A stretch of 8,765 nucleotides of DNA, from the IMG/VR virus record IMGVR_UViG_3300028988_000042; one strand, 5' to 3'. The translations under genes were made by a program, and so were the position numbers. Every line of letters starts with the position of its first letter. The stretch's first letter is position 1. Of the stretch, positions 54 to 8,765 are shown piece after piece. The stretch is from a virus (Duplodnaviria; Heunggongvirae; Uroviricota; Caudoviricetes). The notes beneath the pieces were generated by a model that was not told the origin of the DNA, searched no databases, and saw only the letters and a program-made list of their open reading frames with translations.

Positions 54-1090
54 AGTGCTGCCGCGTTGTAATATTCGTCAGTGTCCGGGGTCATCAGTGC
101 CTGCTCCAGACGCTGCTGTTGTTCGTTATCCCCTGCCAGCACGGCAGTTTGCTGCGGATTTAGCCCCAGTTTGCGAAACAGTTGCAGGTCTTTATCTTCT
201 TCCGGATTCGGCGTGGTTAGCAGTTTGCAACCGTAGAAAATCGAGTTTGCGCCTGCCATAAAGCACATCGCCTGAGTCTGTTCGTTCATCTGCTCGCGTC
301 CGGCAGAAAGGCGCACGTAAGAGGTCGGCATCATGATCCGCGCGACCGCAATGGTGCGAATAAAATCAAAGGCATCGACATCATCGTTATCCGCCAGCGG
401 CGTGCCTTTCACCTTCACCAGCATGTTGATTGGTACGCTTTCCGGCGGCGTCGGCAGGTTTGCCAGTTGTAGCAATAATCCGGCGCGATCTTTTACCGTT
501 TCGCCTAAGCCCACAATGCCGCCAGAACAGACTTTGATCCCGGCATCGCGCACTTTTTCCAGCGTATCGAGGCGTTCCTGATAAGTGCGGGTGGTGATGA
601 TATTGCCGTAAAACTCCGGCGAGGTGTCCAGGTTGTGGTTGTAGTAATCCAGCCCGGCGTTCGCGAGGCGCTGCGCCTGAGATTCACTCAACGTGCCCAG
701 CGTCATACACGCCTCCAGCCCCATCGCTTTTACCCCCTGCACCATTTGTTCCAGGTACGGCATATCGCGTTCGTGGGGATTCTTCCACGCCGCGCCCATA
801 CAGAAACGCGTCGATCCCGCAGCTTTCGCTTTGCGCGCCGACTCCAGCACCTGTTCAACTTCCATCAACCGCTCGGCTTCCAGCCCGGTTTTGTAGCGCG
901 AGCTTTGCGGGCAGTATTTGCAATCTTCCGGACAAGCTCCGGTCTTAATCGACAGCAAAGTGCTGACCTGCACCTGACGAGGATCGAAATGCTGTCGATG
1001 CACCTGCTGCGCTTCAAACAGCAGATCCAGCAACGGTTTTTCAAATAATTCTGTGACTTGCGACAATGTCCAGCGTGGGCGGTGAGCCAT
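50..1090 (-). CDS. bioB: biotin synthase (radical SAM)
   Basis: 346-aa ORF beginning [64 protein letters not shown], containing the CxxxCxxC radical-SAM motif; matches E. coli BioB in length and sequence as recalled. Confidence 0.97.
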
Positions 1091-1176
1091 GGGGCTTCTC
1101 CAAAACGTGTTTTTTGTTGTTAATTCGGTGTAGACTTGTAAACCTAAATCTTTTCAATTTGGTTTACAAGTCGATT
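1091..1176. promoter_or_regulatory. bioO: divergent bioA / bioBFCD promoter region with BirA operator (bioO); inverted repeat arms 1134-1144 and 1161-1171
   Basis: ACTTGTAAACC (1134-1144) and its exact reverse complement GGTTTACAAGT (1161-1171) separated by 16 bp, lying between the divergent bioB and bioA starts; corresponds to the known BirA-biotinyl-AMP operator of E. coli. Confidence 0.8.
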
Positions 1177-2466
1177 ATGACAACGGACGATCTTGCCTTT
1201 GACCAACGCCATATCTGGCACCCATACACATCCATGACCTCCCCTCTGCCGGTTTATCCGGTCGCGAGCGCCGAAGGTTGCGAGCTAATTTTGTCTGACG
1301 GCAGACGCCTGGTTGACGGTATGTCGTCCTGGTGGGCGGCGATCCACGGCTATAATCACCCGCAGCTTAATGCGGCGATGAAGTCGCAAATTGATGCTAT
1401 GTCGCATGTGATGTTTGGCGGTATCACCCATGCGCCCGCCATCGAGCTATGCCGCAAACTGGTGGCAATGACGCCGCAACCGCTGGAATGCGTTTTTCTC
1501 GCGGACTCCGGCTCCGTAGCGGTGGAAGTGGCGATGAAAATGGCGTTGCAGTACTGGCAGGCCAAAGGCGAAGCGCGCCAGCGTTTTCTGACCTTCCGCA
1601 ATGGTTATCATGGCGATACCTTTGGCGCGATGTCGGTGTGCGATCCGGACAACTCAATGCACAGCCTGTGGAAAGGCTATCTGCCAGAAAACTTGTTTGC
1701 TCCCGCCCCGCAAAGCCGCATGGATGGTGAATGGGATGAACGTGATATGGTTGGCTTTGCCCGCCTGATGGCGGCGCATCGTCATGAAATCGCGGCGGTG
1801 ATCATTGAACCGATTGTCCAGGGCGCAGGCGGGATGCGCATGTACCATCCGGAATGGTTAAAACGAATCCGCAAAATGTGCGATCGCGAAGGTATCTTGC
1901 TGATTGCCGACGAGATCGCCACCGGATTTGGTCGTACCGGCAAACTGTTTGCCTGTGAACATGCAGAAATCGCGCCGGACATTTTGTGCCTCGGTAAAGC
2001 CTTAACCGGCGGCACAATGACCCTTTCCGCCACGCTCACCACGCGCGAGGTTGCGGAAACCATCAGTAACGGCGAAGCCGGTTGCTTTATGCATGGGCCA
2101 ACTTTTATGGGCAATCCGCTGGCCTGCGCGGCAGCAAACGCCAGCCTGGCGATTCTCGAATCTGGCGACTGGCAGCAACAGGTGGCGGCTATTGAAGTAC
2201 AGCTGCGCGAGCAACTTGCCCCCGCCCGTGATGCCGAAATGGTTGCCGATGTGCGCGTGCTGGGGGCAATCGGCGTAGTCGAAACCACTCATCCGGTGAA
2301 TATGGCGGCGCTGCAAAAATTCTTTGTCGAACAGGGTGTCTGGATCCGGCCTTTTGGCAAACTGATTTACCTGATGCCGCCCTATATTATTCTCCCGCAA
2401 CAGTTGCAGCGTCTGACCGCAGCGGTTAACCGCGCGGTACAGGATGAAACATTTTTTTGCCAATAA
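1177..2466 (+). CDS. bioA: adenosylmethionine-8-amino-7-oxononanoate aminotransferase
   Basis: ATG at 1177 is in frame with ORF 1066-2466 and gives a 429-aa product [29 protein letters not shown]... ending ...[10 protein letters not shown], matching E. coli BioA. The upstream extension to 1066 would run through the bio operator and is rejected. Confidence 0.96.
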
Positions 2467-2524
2467 CGAGAAGTCCGCGTGAGGGTTTCTGGCTACACTT
2501 TCTGCAAACAAGAAAGGAGGGTTC

Positions 2525-3001
2525 ATGAAACTCATCAGTAACGATCTGCGCGATGGCGATAAATTGCCGCATCGTCATGTCTTTAACGGCATGGGTTACG
2601 ATGGCGATAATATTTCACCGCATCTGGCGTGGGATGATGTTCCTGCGGGAACGAAAAGTTTTGTTGTCACCTGCTACGACCCGGATGCGCCAACCGGCTC
2701 CGGCTGGTGGCACTGGGTAGTTGTTAACTTACCCGCTGATACCCGCGTATTACCGCAAGGGTTTGGCTCTGGTCTGGTAGCAATGCCAGACGGCGTTTTG
2801 CAGACGCGTACCGACTTTGGTAAAACCGGGTACGATGGCGCAGCACCGCCGAAAGGCGAAACTCATCGCTACATTTTTACCGTTCACGCGCTGGATATAG
2901 AACGTATTGATGTCGATGAAGGTGCCAGCGGCGCGATGGTCGGGTTTAACGTTCATTTCCACTCTCTGGCAAGCGCCTCGATTACTGCGATGTTTAGTTA
3001 A
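2525..3001 (+). CDS. ybhB: PEBP-family (phosphatidylethanolamine-binding / kinase-inhibitor-like) protein
   Basis: 158-aa ORF MKLISNDLRDGDKLPHRHVFNGMGYDGDNISPHLAWDDVPAGTKSFVVTCYDPDAPTGSGWWHW... preceded by AGGAGG 5 nt upstream of the ATG; matches E. coli YbhB, which lies between bioA and attB(lambda) in K-12. Confidence 0.95.
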   Translation: MKLISNDLRDGDKLPHRHVFNGMGYDGDNISPHLAWDDVPAGTKSFVVTCYDPDAPTGSGWWHWVVVNLPADTRVLPQGFGSGLVAMPDGVLQTRTDFGKTGYDGAAPPKGETHRYIFTVHALDIERIDVDEGASGAMVGFNVHFHSLASASITAMFS

Positions 3002-3009
3002 TCACTCTG

Positions 3010-3032
3010 CCAGATGGCGCAATGCCATCTGG
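3010..3032 (+). terminator. stem-loop downstream of ybhB (possible weak terminator of the bioA-ybhB transcript)
   Basis: CCAGATGGC (3010-3018) / GCCATCTGG (3024-3032), 9-bp perfect stem with a 5-nt loop, 9 nt after the ybhB stop. There is no clean U-tract immediately 3' (TATCACTT...), so intrinsic termination is uncertain. Confidence 0.3.
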
Positions 3033-3091
3033 TATCACTTAAAGGTATTAAAAACAACTTTTTGTCTTTTTACCTTCCCGTTTCGCTCAAG

Positions 3092-3106
3092 TTAGTATAA
3101 AAAAGT
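3092..3106 (-). other. attR: lambda-type att core (O) of a hybrid attR site; B' arm toward ybhB, P arm toward higher coordinates
   Basis: Minus strand reads TTCA-ACTTTTTTATACTAA-CTTGAGCGAAACGGGAAGG. The core matches lambda GCTTTTTTATACTAA at 14/15 (first base A instead of G), the 3' flank CTTGAGCGAAACG is the E. coli attB B' arm, and the 5' flank TTCA matches the lambda P arm. Confidence 0.8.
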
Positions 3107-3250
3107 TGAATGCGAAACGGTAAAAACCATTAATATCAACGTTTTATAATTGATTCAGTCTAAAAAATAGACTGCATAATGATACAAAACACAACATATC
3201 CAGTCACTATGAATCAACCACTTAGATGGTCTTAGTGACCTGTAACAGAG
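3107..3250 (-). other. lambda-like attP P arm with two inverted arm-type Int-binding-site-like repeats
   Basis: Minus strand reads CTCTGTTACAGGTCACTAAGACCATCTAAGTGGTTGATTCATAGTGACTGGATATGTTGTGTTTTG..., closely resembling the lambda P arm (P1/P2 region) as recalled. CAGTCACTAT at 3201-3210 and the inverted CAGGTCACTAA (reverse complement of 3232-3242) fit the arm-type Int site pattern. Confidence 0.65.
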
Positions 3251-3251
3251 C

Positions 3252-3294
3252 ATTAGCGCAAGGTGATTTTTTTGTCTTCTTGCGCTAATTTTTT
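3252..3294 (+). terminator. rho-independent terminator hairpin, candidate sib/tI-like retroregulator in the att P arm
   Basis: ATTAGCGCAAG (3252-3262) pairs perfectly with CTTGCGCTAAT (3279-3289), 16-nt T-rich loop, followed by a T-run to 3294. It is on the strand an int transcript would use when reading P' to O to P in the circular phage. Confidence 0.55.
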
Positions 3295-3608
3295 GTCAAC
3301 ACACTGGGTTAGCTGAATTTACAACCACGCTCAGTATCTCGATAAGCGCAGAGAAATGATGCAGTGGTGGGCGGACTGGATTGATGAAAAGGTGGAGTGA
3401 TCCGCCTTAACCATTATCGAAGAGCACAAAGCCTTGCAATCCAGTGCAATGCTTTGTGTATACCTATTTTCCCAAATTTGTTTCAGTAATATGTCGATCT
3501 CCAATTATTAGAATGGTACACTAAACAACGTGCGCAATTACAATAATGTAGCGTATAAAAAAACAAAAGCTAATTATATTTTTTAAATAAACATAGTGAA
3601 CTAAATAT

Positions 3609-4595
3609 ATGAGAAATTATAGCATAGATACTATGAGGTTTGTAGCGTGCTTTTTTATAATAGCTGTTCATATAGGTGGGTACCCGCAACAAGGAGAATT
3701 ATTTACAGAGGTATTTAGAGGTGTATCGCGATGGGCTGTGCCATTCTTCTTCCTGGTTACAGGATATTTTTTATCATGCCAAAACAAAAGAAAACTACTA
3801 TTAAGACTTACTAGGATAACATATATAACACTAATATTTAGCGTACTGTTCTTTATTTTTCAACTAACTTTGAACTATAAAGATGGATATTCATTAATTA
3901 TAAGCATCATAGATCCATTTATTTTTATCGGTGGGTCTTATTTCCATTTGTGGTTCTTGCCTTCAATCTTAATAGGTATGATTTCAGTAAGTTACATGAT
4001 AGAAAATGTTTCAGAAAATTTTGGAATCTCTTTAAGTATACTTATTATATTTATAATATGGTGCGTTGATTTCTTTGGTACTGCCTACTTCTCACATGAT
4101 ATATATGAATCAACAAGAACTATTCTATCAATACCAACAATATATATAGGGTATTACTTATACACTAAGAAAGACATAATTATAAAATCTAACGGGAATT
4201 TATTGATTTTATGTATGCTAGCTTCCGTGGTTTTTTCCGTGATTGAGATTCTAATATACAAATCAATATATGGTTCACTTGCCAATATAAGAGAACTACC
4301 TTTATTTTCTGTTATTACTGCTATAATAATACTAATGTTATCTATAAGATCACAAAGCACAAAAGAGACTGTTCTATCAAGGATAGGAAGAGATGATTCT
4401 ATCGTCATATATCTTATTCACCCACTATTTATAGTTTTAATATCAAAGGTGTTTAGGGTTGCTCATGAATATAACGGGATGGCTATTCTTGTGATTACAT
4501 TTATTGTAAGCATTTCGTTTTCATTGTTTGTCAAGAGTAAATTTCCTTCAATATATTCATTTCTTACTGGCGGTTTTATAAAAGAAACAAAATAA
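3609..4595 (+). CDS. acyltransferase family 3 (AT3) integral membrane protein; candidate prophage-encoded O-antigen O-acetyltransferase (lysogenic conversion)
   Basis: 328-aa very hydrophobic ORF with ~10 predicted TM segments. AT3 hallmarks: R-x10-H in the first helix (MRFVACFFIIAVH), VPFFFLVTGYFL (FFxxSG-type motif), and a C-terminal YLIHP motif. Visibly AT-rich relative to flanking DNA. Sits between attR and the tailspike, where P22-like phages carry serotype-conversion genes. Confidence 0.8.
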   Translation: MRNYSIDTMRFVACFFIIAVHIGGYPQQGELFTEVFRGVSRWAVPFFFLVTGYFLSCQNKRKLLLRLTRITYITLIFSVLFFIFQLTLNYKDGYSLIISIIDPFIFIGGSYFHLWFLPSILIGMISVSYMIENVSENFGISLSILIIFIIWCVDFFGTAYFSHDIYESTRTILSIPTIYIGYYLYTKKDIIIKSNGNLLILCMLASVVFSVIEILIYKSIYGSLANIRELPLFSVITAIIILMLSIRSQSTKETVLSRIGRDDSIVIYLIHPLFIVLISKVFRVAHEYNGMAILVITFIVSISFSLFVKSKFPSIYSFLTGGFIKETK

Positions 4596-4605
4596 ACCAT
4601 AAAAC

Positions 4606-4630
4606 ACACCACCATAATATATGGTGGTGT
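4606..4630. terminator. bidirectional stem-loop terminator between the convergent acyltransferase and tailspike genes
   Basis: ACACCACCAT (4606-4615) / ATGGTGGTGT (4621-4630), 10-bp perfect stem with a 5-nt loop; A-rich on the 5' side (a U-tract for the minus-strand transcript) and T-containing on the 3' side. Lies in the 57-bp gap between the two stop codons. Confidence 0.55.
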
Positions 4631-4652
4631 ATCAAATTATTTCTGAGCTGAT

Positions 4653-6551
4653 TTACATGTCATTTTCTGAATTATAAATAAGTACAACCTGACCTGAATA
4701 CGTTGCTTGTGATGACCACCCTGTATCCATATTGTATGGCCTGATCCTTACTTGGCTTGAACTAATTAATCTAGCTTTTATAAGCCATGTATCATCGTTT
4801 GTGTTTGCTGCTACCTCCTGAATTGATACTGTATTTGCTGGCTGGAATTGATCTGGTATTGCTCTTGTTACAACCCTTGACGATCCAGATACTGTTAGTG
4901 TGAAAAACTCCCTACCCGATGTTGATATAGATTGGCAACCTTCAGAAAAGTTGTTTCTTATATCTGGTCTGGATGATCTTCCTTCTGCTATGGTCTTCAT
5001 GCGAATAACGCTAAGTGGCATTACAGTTCCCGTTGTATTACGGAATCTGCAACCTGTTATCTTAACCTGAAACGGATTTGATATAAGATTTATTGCAACT
5101 CCATGTTCAGGTACTAACCAGTTGCATGAGCTAACAGTAAATCTCGCACCGTCTGAGTTTGATTCAATTAAGCATCCATCGAAATAGCATCCAACAAAAA
5201 TATCTGCGTTAGACATTATAACCACACGCCCTTTTGCGCTATCAGCAGACTGATTTGGATAAAAATGACTATTACTAAAAGAATTTGCTCCTTTACGTAA
5301 ATACATAACATCTGCATACTGTGAACCAATAACTAAGTCTGAGAAGTTATTATCATAGTTGTTGATATCCAAGCCAACGCCATCTGTAACGTTAGTTGGG
5401 TAAGAAGCATTCCAATCTGGTTGTTGAAATATAAACGTTTTTCCCACATTTAATTCATGTGGCTGTGAGTCATTAGGTTCAGTCTTTAATCCATAACGCA
5501 AGTATCTTGTCAGTAGACCTCCCAATATAGTCACTTTCAAAAAGTCATCATAAACCCTAATTGCGCCGGAAGCTTTCCAGTTAGCATCGATATTAGGATT
5601 AAATACCACGATGTTTTCAATTGGTCTAGAGCCGTTAACTTTACGAAAATCTAGAACAGGTTCTGTAGAAGGAAATGCTCCAATTGCTAAAAGAGATGGA
5701 TTCAACATAGAAAAATTCAAACAATCTGTTATTGTAAATGGACGTGATACATAGTAAGTGCCCTGAGTCATATCAAAAACAGTGCCACCCAAATTGTACA
5801 TGTTTGGATCTTCTCTATCAGTTGAGTAAGTTGTTTTGCGATTTCTCTTGATTATACTATCTCTCCACAAATCCAGTGCATCAGAGCTGTCGAATGTTGA
5901 ATCGCATGGTTTTGCTCCGTAATTTCTTGGGTCATCTACTGAATACCCAGAAAGAAATCCAACACACACCCATGTTGAGTCTGGAGTGGAGCCTGGCGTA
6001 ACTATATAACCATCAATTGGTATATTTCCTATATATGAATAATACATTCCATCTGAATATTTGAATGATTCGTATTTATTTAATATCACTCCGCCAACTG
6101 ACATATCTCCAGATTTTTTGTATACATATGGCATGTAATCGCTATAAACATTACCACCATATGTGCTCCCGACAATCTTATCTCCATTGTTTGATGAAAT
6201 ATCAACTCGCAACTGATCAGGATCATACTTCAGTAAATTAGGAAAATAGAACTGCTGCACACCATATGCATCATAAACAGCCATAGAGTGGCCTTGCACA
6301 GTTACGAACTTGGCAATCTGTCCGTTATATACAGGGTAACCAGCAGCGTTAATGATGATTGGTTGCGAAACAGGAACGTGAGAGCCGTCTTCGTTCTCCA
6401 CATAAACCTGAATCTGGTTTTCAGGGTTTTCCGGGTCAGTGTCAATTTTACCGATATAAATTTTGCCATTGGCTACGGCTTTAAAAGAACGAGCCATAGT
6501 GAAGAGTTGCGAAGGCATGCTTACCACAACATTTGCGGTGATATCTGACAT
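4653..6551 (-). CDS. tailspike protein: P22 gp9-like N-terminal head-binding domain fused to a divergent receptor-binding domain
   Basis: From ATG 6551 (GGAG 7 nt upstream) the product starts [40 protein letters not shown]...LKYDPDQLR, close to the P22 tailspike N-terminus [40 protein letters not shown]...LKYDPDQY as recalled. After the DPDQ hinge (6213-6224) the remaining ~515 aa are unrelated to P22 gp9 and AT-rich. The track ORF start at 6599 is rejected for the homology-supported ATG with an SD. Confidence 0.9.
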
Positions 6552-6576
6552 TTCATTGCTCCAGACGAATGATATG

Positions 6577-6599
6577 ATGCAATCATGATGTGATTGCAT
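6577..6599. promoter_or_regulatory. perfect inverted repeat, candidate operator for the Mnt-like repressor in the divergent tailspike/mnt intergenic region
   Basis: ATGCAATCA (6577-6585) - TGATG - TGATTGCAT (6591-6599): 9-bp arms, 5-bp spacer. Each arm carries a TTGCAT (-35-like) hexamer, one per strand. Located 26 bp upstream of the tailspike start codon and 74 bp upstream of the mnt-like start codon. Confidence 0.4.
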
Positions 6600-6672
6600 A
6601 CCGAAATGGTACTATTGAGTATTTATCCAGTAGGTTACGATGCCATTCCACCCAACTGGTGAGGCATCAAGG

Positions 6673-6933
6673 ATGTACAGCAAATACGACGAGGCGCAGT
6701 TTCACTTGAGACTTCCGCATGAACTCCACGCGAAAATTAAACAGCGCGCGAAGATGAATAACAGGTCGCTGAACTCAGAGATAATTGCAGCGATTGAAGA
6801 ATCATTGGCTAAACAAAGCTCTGCATCAGTTTACATTGACGATGCAGAGCGTATGGCAGAACAACAATCTGATATGGTTAAGAAAATTGTCTTTGATACG
6901 CTCAAGGAGCTATATAAAAAAGACAGCAACTAA
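6673..6933 (+). CDS. mnt: Mnt-like ribbon-helix-helix (Arc/MetJ superfamily) repressor
   Basis: MYSKYDEAQFHLRLPHELHAKIKQRAKMNNRSLNSEIIAAIEESL...DAERMAEQQSDMVKKIVFDTLKELYKK aligns with P22 Mnt (...HFNFRMPMEVREKLKFRAEANGRSMNSELLQIVQDAL...DAERLADEQSELVKKMVFDTLKDLYKK) as recalled. Start chosen at ATG 6673 (GAGG 8 nt upstream, length matches Mnt); the in-frame ATG at 6640 is an alternative. Confidence 0.85.
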   Translation: MYSKYDEAQFHLRLPHELHAKIKQRAKMNNRSLNSEIIAAIEESLAKQSSASVYIDDAERMAEQQSDMVKKIVFDTLKELYKKDSN

Positions 6934-6953
6934 CCATCCATTACGGAGGATTT

Positions 6954-7031
6954 ATGCAAAGAGATATGATGAATATTACATTCTACATATTTGGTTTTTG
7001 CACTTTCCTGGTGTTTGCAAAGCTATTCTGA
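6954..7031 (+). CDS. hypothetical 25-aa hydrophobic micro-protein (single predicted TM helix)
   Basis: ATG 6954 with GGAGG at 6945-6949 (4-nt spacer); translation MQRDMMNITFYIFGFCTFLVFAKLF then TGA. Directly downstream of mnt on the same strand and overlaps the 3' end of the convergent ejection-protein gene by 9 bp. No homology evidence; could be fortuitous. Confidence 0.2.
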   Translation: MQRDMMNITFYIFGFCTFLVFAKLF

Positions 7032-8531
7032 CAACGCATCAGACTTAGCCCCCTGCGTCATAGCGTTAATTGCCTTTTGTGCCTGCTGCATGGCTTTCTC
7101 AAACGCTGTTGATCCGCGTGGGGTGTTTGCCATTCGGAGCATTGCATTTCTGAATGGCTCGCTCTCATAGGCGCGAGTGAGAAGTCCGTAGCTTACTGCT
7201 GCGCCAGTTGTCGCCGGGTTCATTGCCGTCCCATACCCAATAATGAACGGGATAGTTTGCTGCCCTGTGGGTGTTGTTACTGCCGCTTTTGCAGCCTGCT
7301 GCGTGGATTGCAGGTAGTTTTTCAATCCTTTCAGATAAGCGGCTTCCTGACCTTTAAATGTGATGCCAGTCTGGTTTTGCAGGATGTTAAGCTGCCGAAG
7401 GAACTGGTCAGGGGAACCACCTGATTTCTCCATCGCCTTTCCAATGATGCCATTGCGCATTTGCGCCCTGCCAACACGACCAACTGAGTTATACAGAGTC
7501 TTAATTTCCGATTTGTTCTTGCTGAATAGCATGTTGTTGACAACTTCCGGCGTAAGATCGCCTTTCATGAGAACATTCTTCAGCCTGGTATTCTTTAGTT
7601 TCGCCGCTTCGTCAGCGTAAACGGCATTGGCCTGCTGATATTTACGGAGAGTATCGCTGCCAAGATTCTGACCAATGGCACCATTGATATCGTCGGTCAT
7701 TGCCTTGTAAACTCGCTGAATGGCAGCATCGGAACGGTTTGGTAATACCGGTCGCTCACCCTTCACGTCCATTCTGAACTGGCTGCGCAGGTCGCTTAAT
7801 TGCTTCAAATCCAGATTTACCGGACCATCAGGGCCAGCATTGCGAACAAGCTCATCACGATATGACTGAAGTTTTGAAATTGTCTCGTTATCAGCTACCT
7901 TACCAAGCTTCTGCAGATTAGATATCTCAGTATCAATCTGCTGAATTGCTCGCGCAGGCTGAATGTTTACTCCAGCCATAGCATTCTGAACCTGCTCCAG
8001 TCGATTACCGGCGGCACGACGAATTCCTGATGTTTTCGTTTTAAGGCTGCCAATAACAACCGCTGGATCATACTCGCCGAATTTATCAGCAAATCTCTGC
8101 ACCAACTGACTTCTCGCTTCCTGTTGCGTTGCTCTCATTCCGCTTGTGCCAGCCAGGGGAATATTTTCTGCTGTAGTCTGCGCCATTTTCCCGACGCGGG
8201 AAGTAGGCTGTAACAGGTCTGTGGTGTGCAGAGGCACTCCTTCACGCTCTGCAAATCTGATAGCTTGCTGCGCTTCTGGTGCAATAGCACCACGAACGCC
8301 ACGATAAGCAGCGCCTAATCCACGTCCGGCAGCGTTAATAGCGCCGCCAGCCAGAACGCCAACGCCTAAATCGGTGGCGAGTGCTTCCGCATCATCTTTC
8401 GCACTATTTGCAGCAAGTGATCCAACTGCGTTTTCAGCGAGAAGGCGAGTTGCCCCCTGAGCAATTCGACCAGCAAGTGTTGGTGCCTGTGCTGCCGCTC
8501 TCTCAACGCCAGCAGGAGTGAGGTAAGGCAA
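7023..8531 (-). CDS. phage virion internal / DNA-ejection-type protein (position equivalent to P22 gene 16); true 5' end uncertain
   Basis: Long ORF with Ala/Gly/Gln/Lys-rich composition typical of P22-like ejection proteins, located immediately upstream of the immunity-I/tailspike region on the tailspike strand. The listed start is a TTG with no good SD, and the frame stays open with protein-like translation up to a TAA at 8760-8762, so the real start is probably upstream. Confidence 0.6.
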   Translation of the reverse strand: MPYLTPAGVERAAAQAPTLAGRIAQGATRLLAENAVGSLAANSAKDDAEALATDLGVGVLAGGAINAAGRGLGAAYRGVRGAIAPEAQQAIRFAEREGVPLHTTDLLQPTSRVGKMAQTTAENIPLAGTSGMRATQQEARSQLVQRFADKFGEYDPAVVIGSLKTKTSGIRRAAGNRLEQVQNAMAGVNIQPARAIQQIDTEISNLQKLGKVADNETISKLQSYRDELVRNAGPDGPVNLDLKQLSDLRSQFRMDVKGERPVLPNRSDAAIQRVYKAMTDDINGAIGQNLGSDTLRKYQQANAVYADEAAKLKNTRLKNVLMKGDLTPEVVNNMLFSKNKSEIKTLYNSVGRVGRAQMRNGIIGKAMEKSGGSPDQFLRQLNILQNQTGITFKGQEAAYLKGLKNYLQSTQQAAKAAVTTPTGQQTIPFIIGYGTAMNPATTGAAVSYGLLTRAYESEPFRNAMLRMANTPRGSTAFEKAMQQAQKAINAMTQGAKSDALSE

Positions 8532-8765
8532 TGCTTCAGCAAATACCCTTCCCTCTGTCGTTTGTGGAGTCAGCGCGCCTTGCTGAAAGCCAAAGTCCTG
8601 CTCTAATCCCTGCGTTGTTACTCGTGGCGCTGGTTGATATGTACCATCGCCAATACCGAGTTTACCGCCAGCCCAAGTGAAGTGGTCAACAAAAACTGGC
8701 CACCGAGTTAGAGTTTTTTCCAGTATCGATTTTCCGATTCGTTTGGTGGTAACCCACCATTATAT

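What the first reader, a model, noticed from the sequence alone, without database searches (positions are those of the whole stretch)
6150..6300. Recombination joint at the DPDQ hinge of the tailspike
The first ~113 residues are near-identical in pattern to the P22 gp9 head-binding domain and end in LKYDPDQ (codons at 6213-6224). Immediately after this the protein becomes unrelated and the DNA turns AT-rich. This is the known module-exchange point of P22-like tailspikes, so the window appears to capture a domain swap that retargets a conserved virion to a new host receptor. An uncharacterised receptor-binding enzyme domain of ~515 aa is therefore likely.
Basis: partly seen in the sequence, partly recalled or inferred. 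Interest (0 to 1): 0.7.

Follow-up and report, generated by a model that had tools for sequence, protein, structure and literature searches.

The report
Chimeric P22-like prophage tailspike gene
This E. coli prophage tailspike gene joins the standard P22-type virion-attachment domain, exactly at the known DPDQ hinge, to a rare beta-helix receptor module that probably targets the O-antigen of the emerging Shiga-toxin serogroup OX18; the architecture is textbook, the specificity is new.

Summary
Gene 4653-6551 (-) encodes a 632-aa tailspike. Residues 1-113 are a complete P22-type head-binding domain (Pfam E 5e-66; 74% identical to P22, 90% to Sf6) ending in DPDQ at 6213-6224. DNA homology to other E. 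coli prophage tailspikes stops at that point: 1114 of 5426 complete genomes carry this head-binding DNA. In an evenly spaced sample, 57 of 59 partial alignments end within 7 nt of 6213.

The remaining 519 aa match no Pfam or PDB sequence. They are predicted with confidence (aa 206-632) to form a right-handed beta-helix like known tailspikes. This module is rare: 17 clusters among 5.8 billion proteins. It also occurs behind T7-type, TSP1/Gp66-type and other anchors, for example 70% identity to gp17 of Kayfunavirus P762.

A second, sharper joint lies at aa 233/234 (window 5853/5852).

The module occurs in 8 of 5426 genomes, and 6 of those carry the OX18 O-antigen cluster, which only 12 genomes have (Fisher p 7e-16). 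The prophages sit at two chromosomal sites.

Verdict: a new member of a well-known kind, and probably an OX18-specific O-antigen depolymerase. Interest is modest.

The parts
4653..6551 (-). Tailspike gene, 632 aa plus stop. The true start is the ATG at 6551, not the upstream ATG at 6599 given by the ORF list.
   Evidence: RefSeq annotates the same 1899-nt CDS (WP_023156183.1) in strain JNE170426.
6213..6551 (-). Head-binding (virion anchor) domain, aa 1-113.
   Evidence: PF09008 full length, E 5.4e-66. PDB matches to Sf6 and P22 N-terminal domains. This DNA is 88-97% identical in 1114 of 5426 E. coli genomes.
6213..6224 (-). DPDQ hinge codons (aa 110-113). Joint 1 lies between 6213 and 6212.
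   Evidence: for coordinates. Homology ends at 6213 (A11) and 6208 (CUS-3). 57 of 59 sampled partial alignments end within 7 nt. Many records match window 6213-7100 only.
5853..6212 (-). Stem/neck module, aa 114-233, including the predicted cap helix (aa ~223-236) at the entrance of the beta-helix. The AF2 model is low-confidence for aa 114-205.
   Evidence: DNA is 100% identical to the fECg99.1 tailspike over gene nt 34-699 (window 6518-5853). pLDDT < 50 for model residues 1-92.
4656..5852 (-). Beta-helix body plus C-terminal beta-sandwich, aa 234-632. Joint 2 lies between 5853 and 5852. Invariant acidic and basic residues include H365, E366, D400, H429, D450 and D458.
4603..4633 (-). Strong hairpin (14-pair stem, T-rich tail) between the convergent tailspike and acyltransferase genes. 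Likely the terminator of the tailspike transcript.
   Evidence: The same layout (tailspike, terminator, convergent oac) is annotated in Sf6.
3609..4595 (+). Acyltransferase_3 membrane protein, 328 aa, 29.7% GC. Putative O-antigen acetylase (lysogenic conversion gene).
   Evidence: PF01757 E 5.9e-28. PHROG O-acetyltransferase. Occupies the position of Sf6 oac. GC.
3340..6906 (.). Cassette (acyltransferase, tailspike, most of mnt) found 99.5% identical in a different P22-like prophage, integrated between dacD and sbcB.
   Evidence: (H46 and H47, query 341-3907). That prophage looks complete.
3092..3106 (-). Lambda-type att core (ACTTTTTTATACTAA, 1 mismatch), marking the prophage/chromosome junction downstream of ybhB.
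   Evidence: The site lies between ybhB and ybhC. The core sequence itself was recalled from memory.
6640..6933 (+). Mnt/Arc-type repressor gene upstream of, and divergent from, the tailspike gene.
   Evidence: PF03869 E 1e-14 and PF11423 E 3.3e-14.
7023..8765 (-). P22 gp16-type DNA transfer (ejection) protein gene. It runs off the window end.
   Evidence: phrog_770 E 2e-196. Annotated as a 1998-nt CDS in JNE170426.

Best explanation
This is the tailspike gene of a P22-like (Lederbergvirus-type) prophage sitting at the lambda attachment site next to ybhB. The protein is a chimera of at least three exchangeable modules.

- Module 1 (aa 1-113) is the conserved head-binding domain that docks the trimeric spike onto the tail hub.
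- At the DPDQ hinge it is joined to module 2 (aa 114-233), a stem ending in the cap helix.
- Module 3 (aa 234-632) is a right-handed parallel beta-helix followed by a C-terminal beta-sandwich.

The near-identical head-binding DNA shared by more than a thousand E. coli prophages gives homologous recombination a foothold. Crossovers resolve at its 3' edge, so foreign receptor modules are swapped in without disturbing virion assembly. This part is shown comparatively.

The swapped-in module belongs to a small family that also sits behind T7-type, TSP1/Gp66-type and other anchors. This is also shown.

By analogy with P22, Sf6 and HK620 tailspikes, the beta-helix most likely binds and cleaves the host O-antigen so the virion can reach the outer membrane. 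Host association points to the OX18 O-antigen. The invariant acid pair E366/D400 (perhaps with D450, D458, H365 or H429) is the candidate catalytic site. These steps are inferred.

The convergent acyltransferase probably acetylates the same O-antigen in the lysogen to block superinfection. This too is inferred.
For: Anchor domain.

Exact, recurrent DNA breakpoint at 6213.

No sequence similarity to other P22-like receptor domains after aa ~118.

Same receptor module behind other anchors:
- Kayfunavirus P762 gp17, aa 139-631, 70% identity.
- PF18668 anchors in 7 of 17 family members and PF03906 in 1 of 17.
- A 72-kb contig with an SU10-type portal.

Second joint: 666 nt at 100% identity, then ~55%.

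Fold:
- AF2 model with pLDDT mostly above 85 for aa 206-632.
- Foldseek best hits are the Sf6, Det7 and HK620 tailspikes.

Catalytic candidates:
- 17 invariant charged, His or Tyr residues across homologues down to 31% identity.
- E366 and D400 are 34 residues apart. The mutated acid pair D339/E372 of HK620 is 33 apart (PDB entry titles).
- Sf6 has E and D at encoded positions 367 and 400.

Host link:
- The module is in 8 of 5426 genomes and the OX18 cluster in 12 of 5426. Six genomes have both, Fisher p 7e-16.
- The carriers include OX18:H2 and OX18:H19 strains (PMC8084502, PMC10793325) with the prophage at two different loci.

Gene layout matches Sf6 tailspike/oac.

Published precedent: aa 1-115 conserved with the C-terminus swapped in P22-like phages (PMC2629481). 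Prophage receptor-binding protein type tracks host O-serogroup, and receptor domains move between Lederberg- and Kayfunaviruses (PMC10408124).
Against: No enzymatic or binding data exist for any member of this receptor family. No Pfam, PDB or named homologue fixes the chemistry.

Two of the seven genomes with the identical gene have other O-antigen clusters: Ec40743 is O28ab-type and PM22 is another type. This is explained only by assuming O-antigen switching after a defective prophage was fixed.

The carriers are not phylogenetically independent, so the Fisher p-value overstates the evidence. Only about three independent contexts are seen.

Six OX18 genomes lack the module.

The copy at this locus in JNE170426 sits in a degraded prophage (IS element, truncated integrase, pseudogene), so here the gene may be a relic.

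The compositional break is only moderately significant (p ~0.03).

The AF2 model is a monomer and is unreliable for aa 114-205. Residue-level superposition on known active sites could not be done.
Confidence: 0.8

Rival explanations
1. Same chimeric tailspike, but the beta-helix is a polysaccharide lyase (beta-elimination at a uronic acid) or an epimerase-like enzyme rather than a glycoside hydrolase.

For: An invariant P-H-E motif (aa 364-366) and invariant Arg residues are present.

OX18 hosts carry ugd and an extra NAD-dependent epimerase next to the O-antigen cluster. This could mean the O-unit contains a uronic acid; that reading rests on memory and is only a lead.

Against: The Asp that, as recalled from memory, precedes P-H in the AlgE-type motif is not conserved here, judging from the homologue sequences.

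The OX18 O-unit structure was not found in the literature searched.
Confidence: 0.2
2. The receptor module targets a surface polysaccharide other than the O-antigen (capsule, colanic acid, ECA) or a protein, and the OX18 association reflects clonal ancestry.
For: Two carriers have non-OX18 clusters. The carriers fall into few lineages. Pas et al. report receptor-binding protein subtypes spread over several serogroups that probably bind other receptors (PMC10408124).
Against: The module sits in OX18 hosts in three different prophage contexts:
- the ybhB-site remnant;
- a complete prophage at dacD/sbcB in another H-type and sequence type;
- a diverged allele in fECg99.1.

The linked acyltransferase is typical of O-antigen conversion. 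PM22 has lost the colanic acid cluster yet retains the gene, which says little either way.
Confidence: 0.12
3. The beta-helix only binds its receptor and has no catalytic activity.
For: No catalytic motif of a defined enzyme family was detected.
Against: Seven acidic residues and two histidines are invariant down to 31% identity, spaced at about one beta-helix rung. All characterised P22-like tailspikes named in the hits are enzymes.
Confidence: 0.08
4. No exchange occurred. The C-terminal part simply diverged very fast from an ancestral P22-type receptor domain while the N-terminus was constrained.
For: The fold class is the same as in Sf6 and HK620 tailspikes, so very deep common ancestry is possible.
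Against: The step from 96% DNA identity to no detectable homology occurs within a few nucleotides.

The same module is 70% identical in a T7-like phage with an unrelated N-terminus.

Composition changes at the joint.

A second joint shows 100% then 55% DNA identity.
Confidence: 0.02

Closest known systems
Shigella phage Sf6 tailspike gp14 with its neighbouring oac gene
   Same: The head-binding domain is 90% identical over aa 1-113, including YDPDQ. Total length is nearly the same (623 against 632 aa). The gene layout is the same: tailspike, terminator, then a convergent O-antigen acyltransferase at the prophage end. Sf6 is the best Foldseek match for the beta-helix.
   Different: There is no sequence similarity after aa ~118. 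The acyltransferases are barely related (best local E 0.001 over 31 residues). Integration is at a lambda-type att site rather than the Sf6 site. The predicted target is OX18, not the S. flexneri Y O-antigen.
Salmonella phage P22 gp9 (endorhamnosidase tailspike)
   Same: It is the founding member of the architecture: head-binding domain, hinge, beta-helix. Identity over aa 2-113 is 74%. The gene sits after the ejection-protein genes and the mnt region.
   Different: The receptor domain is unrelated in sequence. No ant or arc genes lie between mnt and the tailspike gene here.
E. coli phages HK620 and CUS-3 (P22-like, with swapped receptor domains)
   Same: These are published examples of the same anchor joined to different enzymes. 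Anchor identity is 86-89%. DNA homology to CUS-3 stops at 6208.
   Different: Their modules are an endo-N-acetylglucosaminidase (HK620) and an endosialidase (CUS-3). Neither resembles this one in sequence.
gp17 of Escherichia phage P762 (Kayfunavirus, T7-like)
   Same: It is the closest receptor module in an isolated phage: 70% identity over aa 139-631.
   Different: Its N-terminus (aa 1-221) is unrelated to the P22 anchor, and the protein sits in the gp17 tail-fibre slot of a T7-like genome. The phage is lytic. The gene is annotated 'hypothetical protein', and the host serogroup is unknown.
O-serogroup-specific receptor-binding protein subtypes of Lederberg-, Kayfuna- and Gamaleyaviruses (Pas et al. 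2023, PMC10408124)
   Same: The same principle applies: the anchor is conserved within a genus, the receptor domain is transferred across genera, and the prophage receptor type tracks the host O-antigen.
   Different: OX18 is not among the 14 serogroups assigned there. That paper reports conserved recombination motifs only for lytic genera, not Lederbergviruses. Here the conserved anchor DNA itself marks the joint.

Membership tests
P22-like (Lederbergvirus) tailspike, gp9 type | N-terminal head-binding domain (Pfam PF09008), ~113 aa | tested here: met
   Full-length match, E 5.4e-66. PDB matches to the Sf6 and P22 N-terminal domains.
P22-like (Lederbergvirus) tailspike, gp9 type | [quoted passage not shown] | tested here: met
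   LKYDPDQ at aa 107-113, aligned with the same motif in Sf6 and P22.
P22-like (Lederbergvirus) tailspike, gp9 type | Last gene of the late region of a P22-like genome, after the gp7/gp20/gp16 ejection genes and the mnt region | tested here: met
   gp16-type gene and Mnt/Arc gene lie upstream. The full P22-like gene order is seen in JNE170426 and JNE181771.
P22-like (Lederbergvirus) tailspike, gp9 type | C-terminal right-handed parallel beta-helix with a C-terminal beta-sandwich, assembled as a trimer | tested here: inconclusive
   The monomer model shows the beta-helix and C-terminal sandwich with high confidence, and the fold matches tailspikes. Trimer assembly was not modelled.
P22-like (Lederbergvirus) tailspike, gp9 type | O-antigen binding and cleavage | not testable with these tools
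   Only a host-serogroup association and conserved acidic residues are available.
P22 gp9 / Sf6 gp14 / HK620 gp9 receptor-domain sequence families | Detectable sequence homology of the part after the hinge | tested here: not met
   PDB phmmer matches stop at aa 119. hhalign against Sf6 gives probability 2%. BLASTP E > 0.2. tblastn hits of P22-like phages cover only aa 1-~138, with two reaching aa 154 and 174 at lower identity.
Pectin-lyase-fold (right-handed beta-helix) superfamily | Three-dimensional fold | tested here: met
Pectin-lyase-fold (right-handed beta-helix) superfamily | Match to a curated sequence family (for example Pectate_lyase_3, GH28, Beta_helix) | tested here: not met
   No Pfam family at E <= 0.001-0.01 for aa 114-632.
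Serogroup-specific receptor-binding protein subtype in the sense of Pas et al. 2023 (here: OX18) | Receptor domains with at least 30% identity and 60% coverage shared across phage genera | tested here: met
   33-70% identity over 69-100% of the module in proteins with PF09008, PF18668, PF03906 or other anchors. Kayfunavirus P762 is an example.
Serogroup-specific receptor-binding protein subtype in the sense of Pas et al. 2023 (here: OX18) | All hosts of phages and prophages with this subtype share one O-serogroup | tested here: inconclusive
   Six of 8 carrier genomes have the OX18 cluster, and 2 have other clusters. The serogroups of the hosts of P762 and of the metagenomic members are unknown.

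The most novel reading that the evidence does not exclude
The module defines a new, sequence-orphan family of O-antigen depolymerases specific for the serologically untypeable STEC serogroup OX18.

Its two diverged beta-helix alleles are the window type, linked to an acyltransferase, and the fECg99.1 type, which lacks that gene. They were recombined onto an identical 666-nt anchor-plus-stem block. On this reading they recognise the unmodified and the phage-acetylated forms of the same O-antigen. That would be a snapshot of a phage-versus-phage arms race run through lysogenic conversion.
Probability: 0.15. Interest if true: 0.55.

Novelty: new member of a known kind. Interest (0 to 1): 0.33.

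Why it matters
The architecture itself teaches nothing new. Exchange of receptor domains at the end of the P22 head-binding domain has been described for over 15 years.

The value is practical and local. OX18 strains cause haemolytic uraemic syndrome, including a fatal case. They do not agglutinate with commercial O1-O188 antisera (PMC8084502). A tailspike that binds OX18 O-antigen would be a ready-made typing or capture reagent, and a module for engineering phages against this serogroup.

The gene also gives a clean natural example of nested joints (aa 113/114 and 233/234). These indicate where such proteins can safely be cut and recombined.

Tried and rejected
- Pfam, PHROGs and PDB sequence searches of the C-terminal 519 aa named no family. 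PHROG and PDB hits cover only the anchor or the anchors of other family members.
- The exhaustive profile search was diluted because alignment A1 kept the foreign N-terminal anchors. Most of the 1535 hits are to those anchors. Only about 14 representatives match the beta-helix strongly.
- hhalign and BLASTP against the Sf6 tailspike found no homology beyond the anchor. The near-coincidence of E366/D400 here with E and D at encoded positions 367/400 in Sf6 is therefore kept only as a lead.
- A literature search for 'DPDQ' with 'tailspike' gave no papers.
- A search for the OX18 O-unit structure gave nothing usable. The best-looking hit concerned 'OX188', a different antigen.
- The acyltransferase has no tblastn match in the phage collection and only marginal similarity to Sf6 Oac.
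- Assembly artefact was rejected, because the gene is identical in seven independently finished genomes.
- Gradual divergence was rejected (see rival explanations).
- Residue-level mapping of conserved acids onto the model groove could not be done, because model coordinates are not exposed.

Full report
**Context.** The window runs from the E. coli bio operon (bioB 50-1090 -, bioA +) and ybhB (2525-3001 +) into the end of a prophage.
- A lambda-type att core (ACTTTTTTATACTAA, one mismatch to the core as I recall it) lies at 3092-3106.
- The prophage part holds an Acyl_transf_3 gene (3609-4595 +), the tailspike gene (4653-6551 -) and an Mnt/Arc-type repressor gene (6640-6933 +). It ends with a P22 gp16-type ejection-protein gene (7023 to beyond the window end, -).
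- The 4.1-kb stretch 3000-7100 is 100% identical in five finished E. coli genomes. In one of these, JNE170426, the element between ybhB and ybhC is a degraded P22-like prophage: it has an IS3-family insertion, a truncated integrase and one pseudogene.

**The observation.** From the ATG at 6551 (GGAG 8 nt upstream) the gene encodes 632 aa.
- Pfam Head_binding (PF09008) matches aa 1-113 end to end, E 5.4e-66.
- Identity over this stretch is 83/112 to P22 gp9 and 102/113 to Sf6 gp14.
- DPDQ is aa 110-113, at 6213-6224.
- All PDB sequence matches stop at aa 114-119.
- BLASTP and hhalign against the Sf6 tailspike find nothing significant after aa 118.
- In the phage collection, about 190 P22-like records match only aa 1 to ~120-140.

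**The joint at the DNA level.**
- Homology to the tailspike gene of strain A11 (96.1% over 488 nt, including the upstream region) ends at window 6213. Homology to CUS-3 (90%) ends at 6208.
- With a 652-nt query spanning the joint, 1114 of 5426 complete E. coli genomes match, but only 8 continue past it.
- In an evenly spaced sample of 60 records, one row is a full-length copy. Of the 59 partial alignments, 57 end at gene nt 334-346, and DPDQ ends at nt 339.
- The joint is therefore a sharp boundary across the whole population, far beyond chance.
- Composition shifts as described but modestly: GC 43.1% to 37.3%, GC3 42.5% to 27%. The best GC3 change-point is near codon 101, and 26 of 1000 permutations reach it.

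**What lies after the hinge.** The 519-aa part has no Pfam family and no sequence relative among solved structures.
- An AlphaFold2 model built on 17 homologues is confident for aa 206-632 (pLDDT mostly 85-97) and unreliable for aa 114-205.
- The model shows a cap helix (aa ~223-236), a long right-handed beta-helix and a C-terminal beta-sandwich.
- Foldseek ranks the Sf6, Det7 and HK620 tailspikes highest (E 1e-7 to 1e-4).
- The fold is that of a tailspike depolymerase. The chemistry is not fixed by these data.
- Seventeen charged, His or Tyr residues are invariant across homologues down to 31% identity, among them H365, E366, D400, H429, D450 and D458.
- E366 and D400 lie 34 residues apart, about one rung. 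This resembles the mutated pair D339/E372 of HK620 (PDB entry titles) and the E/D at encoded positions 367/400 of Sf6. My memory that these two are the Sf6 catalytic residues is a lead, not a test.

**The module is mobile and rare.**
- Among 5.8 billion clustered proteins only 17 clusters match. In the exhaustive search only about 14 representatives match the beta-helix strongly.
- Their N-termini differ: one has the P22 head-binding domain, seven have TSP1/Gp66-type anchors (PF18668), one has a T7 tail-fibre N-terminus (PF03906), and the others match no Pfam family.
- The best isolated-phage relative is gp17 of Kayfunavirus P762, 70% identical over aa 139-631.
- Another member sits in a 72-kb contig with an SU10-type portal.
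- Homology begins at different points depending on the partner: aa ~116-117, ~137-144, 163, ~206 and ~239-252.

**A second joint.** The nearest full-length relative is the tailspike of strain fECg99.1, at the same ybhB site but without the acyltransferase.
- Its DNA is 100% identical over gene nt 34-699 (window 6518-5853, aa 12-233). Identity then falls abruptly to about 55% DNA and 45% protein.
- The break lies at the end of the cap helix ('...[10 protein letters not shown] | IKRNRK...').
- The '~515-aa domain' is thus at least two exchangeable units, and this exchange looks recent.
- A further recurrent boundary at gene nt 34 also appears in several sampled genomes.

**Host link.**
- The receptor module is present in 7 genomes, plus the fECg99.1 variant.
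- Two carriers are published STEC strains from HUS cases: JNE170426 (OX18:H2) and JNE181771 (OX18:H19) (PMC8084502, PMC10793325).
- The six-gene O-antigen cluster of JNE170426 occurs in only 12 of 5426 genomes. Six of the 8 module carriers are among them, Fisher p 7e-16. Shared ancestry inflates this value.
- Three contexts are seen. One is the ybhB-site remnant. The second is a different, apparently complete ~39-kb P22-like prophage between dacD and sbcB in JNE181771; the same 3.6-kb cassette (3340-6906, 99.5% identical) is also in 2014C-4587. The third is the diverged fECg99.1 allele.
- The two exceptions are Ec40743 (O28ab-type cluster) and PM22 (another cluster). Both carry the ybhB-site copy. 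O-antigen replacement after fixation of a defective prophage would explain them, but that is inference.
- Prophage receptor-protein type is known to track host O-antigen in Lederbergviruses (PMC10408124). The most likely target is therefore the OX18 O-antigen.

**Comparison with what is known.**
- P22-like tailspikes keep aa 1-115 and carry unrelated C-terminal receptor domains; this was described in the epsilon34 genome paper (PMC2629481).
- Pas et al. used the first 124 aa of the HK620 protein as the Lederbergvirus anchor. They documented receptor-domain transfer among Lederberg-, Kayfuna-, Gamaleya- and other genera (PMC10408124).
- The layout of tailspike, hairpin (4603-4633) and convergent acyltransferase copies Sf6 gene 14 and oac. 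The two acyltransferases are barely related, and this one has no match in the phage collection.

**Verdict.** This is a new member of a known kind. What is new is the receptor module, its probable OX18 specificity, and the inner joint.

**Limits.**
- Nothing here demonstrates binding, cleavage or trimer formation.
- The catalytic residues are inferred from conservation and spacing only.
- The serogroups of the hosts of P762 and of the metagenomic members are unknown.
- The OX18 O-unit structure was not found.

Noticed in passing
window 3092-3106 (and 3107-3340): A lambda-type att core (ACTTTTTTATACTAA, 1 mismatch) lies about 90 nt downstream of ybhB, with a CAGTCACTAT-like arm-type site at about 3211-3220. 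A P22-like prophage therefore uses the lambda attB between ybhB and ybhC. In JNE170426 this prophage is a remnant with an ISEc52 insertion and a truncated integrase.
   Followed up: partly
window 3609-4595 (+): This is a very AT-rich (29.7% GC) Acyl_transf_3 gene, convergent with the tailspike gene and in the position of Sf6 oac. It has no tblastn match in 50,697 phage records and only marginal similarity to Sf6 Oac. It is probably a new O-antigen acetylase for lysogenic conversion.
   Followed up: partly
window 3340-6906: The acyltransferase, tailspike and mnt genes travel together. The same 3.6 kb is 99.5% identical in a different, apparently complete P22-like prophage between dacD and sbcB in JNE181771, and the same 3.6-kb match is present in 2014C-4587 (surroundings not examined there). 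In JNE181771 the flanking ejection genes differ.
   Followed up: partly
window 5852/5853 (aa 233/234): There is a sharp inner recombination joint at the end of the beta-helix cap helix. Identity to the fECg99.1 allele is 100% over 666 nt upstream of it and about 55% after it.
   Followed up: yes
window 6518 (gene nt 34): A recurrent 5' boundary is present. Several E. coli prophage tailspike genes, including that of fECg99.1, align only from nt 34 (others from nt 16 or 52). The first ~11 codons therefore form a separate variable piece.
   Followed up: no
window 4603-4633 (-): A 14-pair hairpin with a T-rich tail lies in the 57-nt gap between the two convergent stop codons. It is a likely terminator and may work in both directions.
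   Followed up: no
phage records OR850875.1, OR844702.1, OR846963.1: Three unannotated records are labelled as phages of Salmonella Kentucky, E. coli O104:H4 and Listeria monocytogenes. Each matches aa 206-632 (206-597 in the Listeria-labelled record) of this tailspike at about 53% identity; the first two give identical identity, E-value and score. The host labels look implausible for one receptor module.
   Followed up: no
L010 (Ec40743) 1-14000 and L011 (PM22) 20000-24000: The two carriers without the OX18 cluster show signs of replacement of the whole region. Ec40743 has a divergent colanic-acid cluster next to an O28ab-type O-antigen cluster. PM22 lacks the colanic-acid cluster altogether.
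   Followed up: no
window 6552-6599: The mechanical ORF list starts the tailspike ORF 16 codons too early, at the ATG at 6599. The gp16-type ORF is listed from an internal TTG because the gene runs off the window end.
   Followed up: yes
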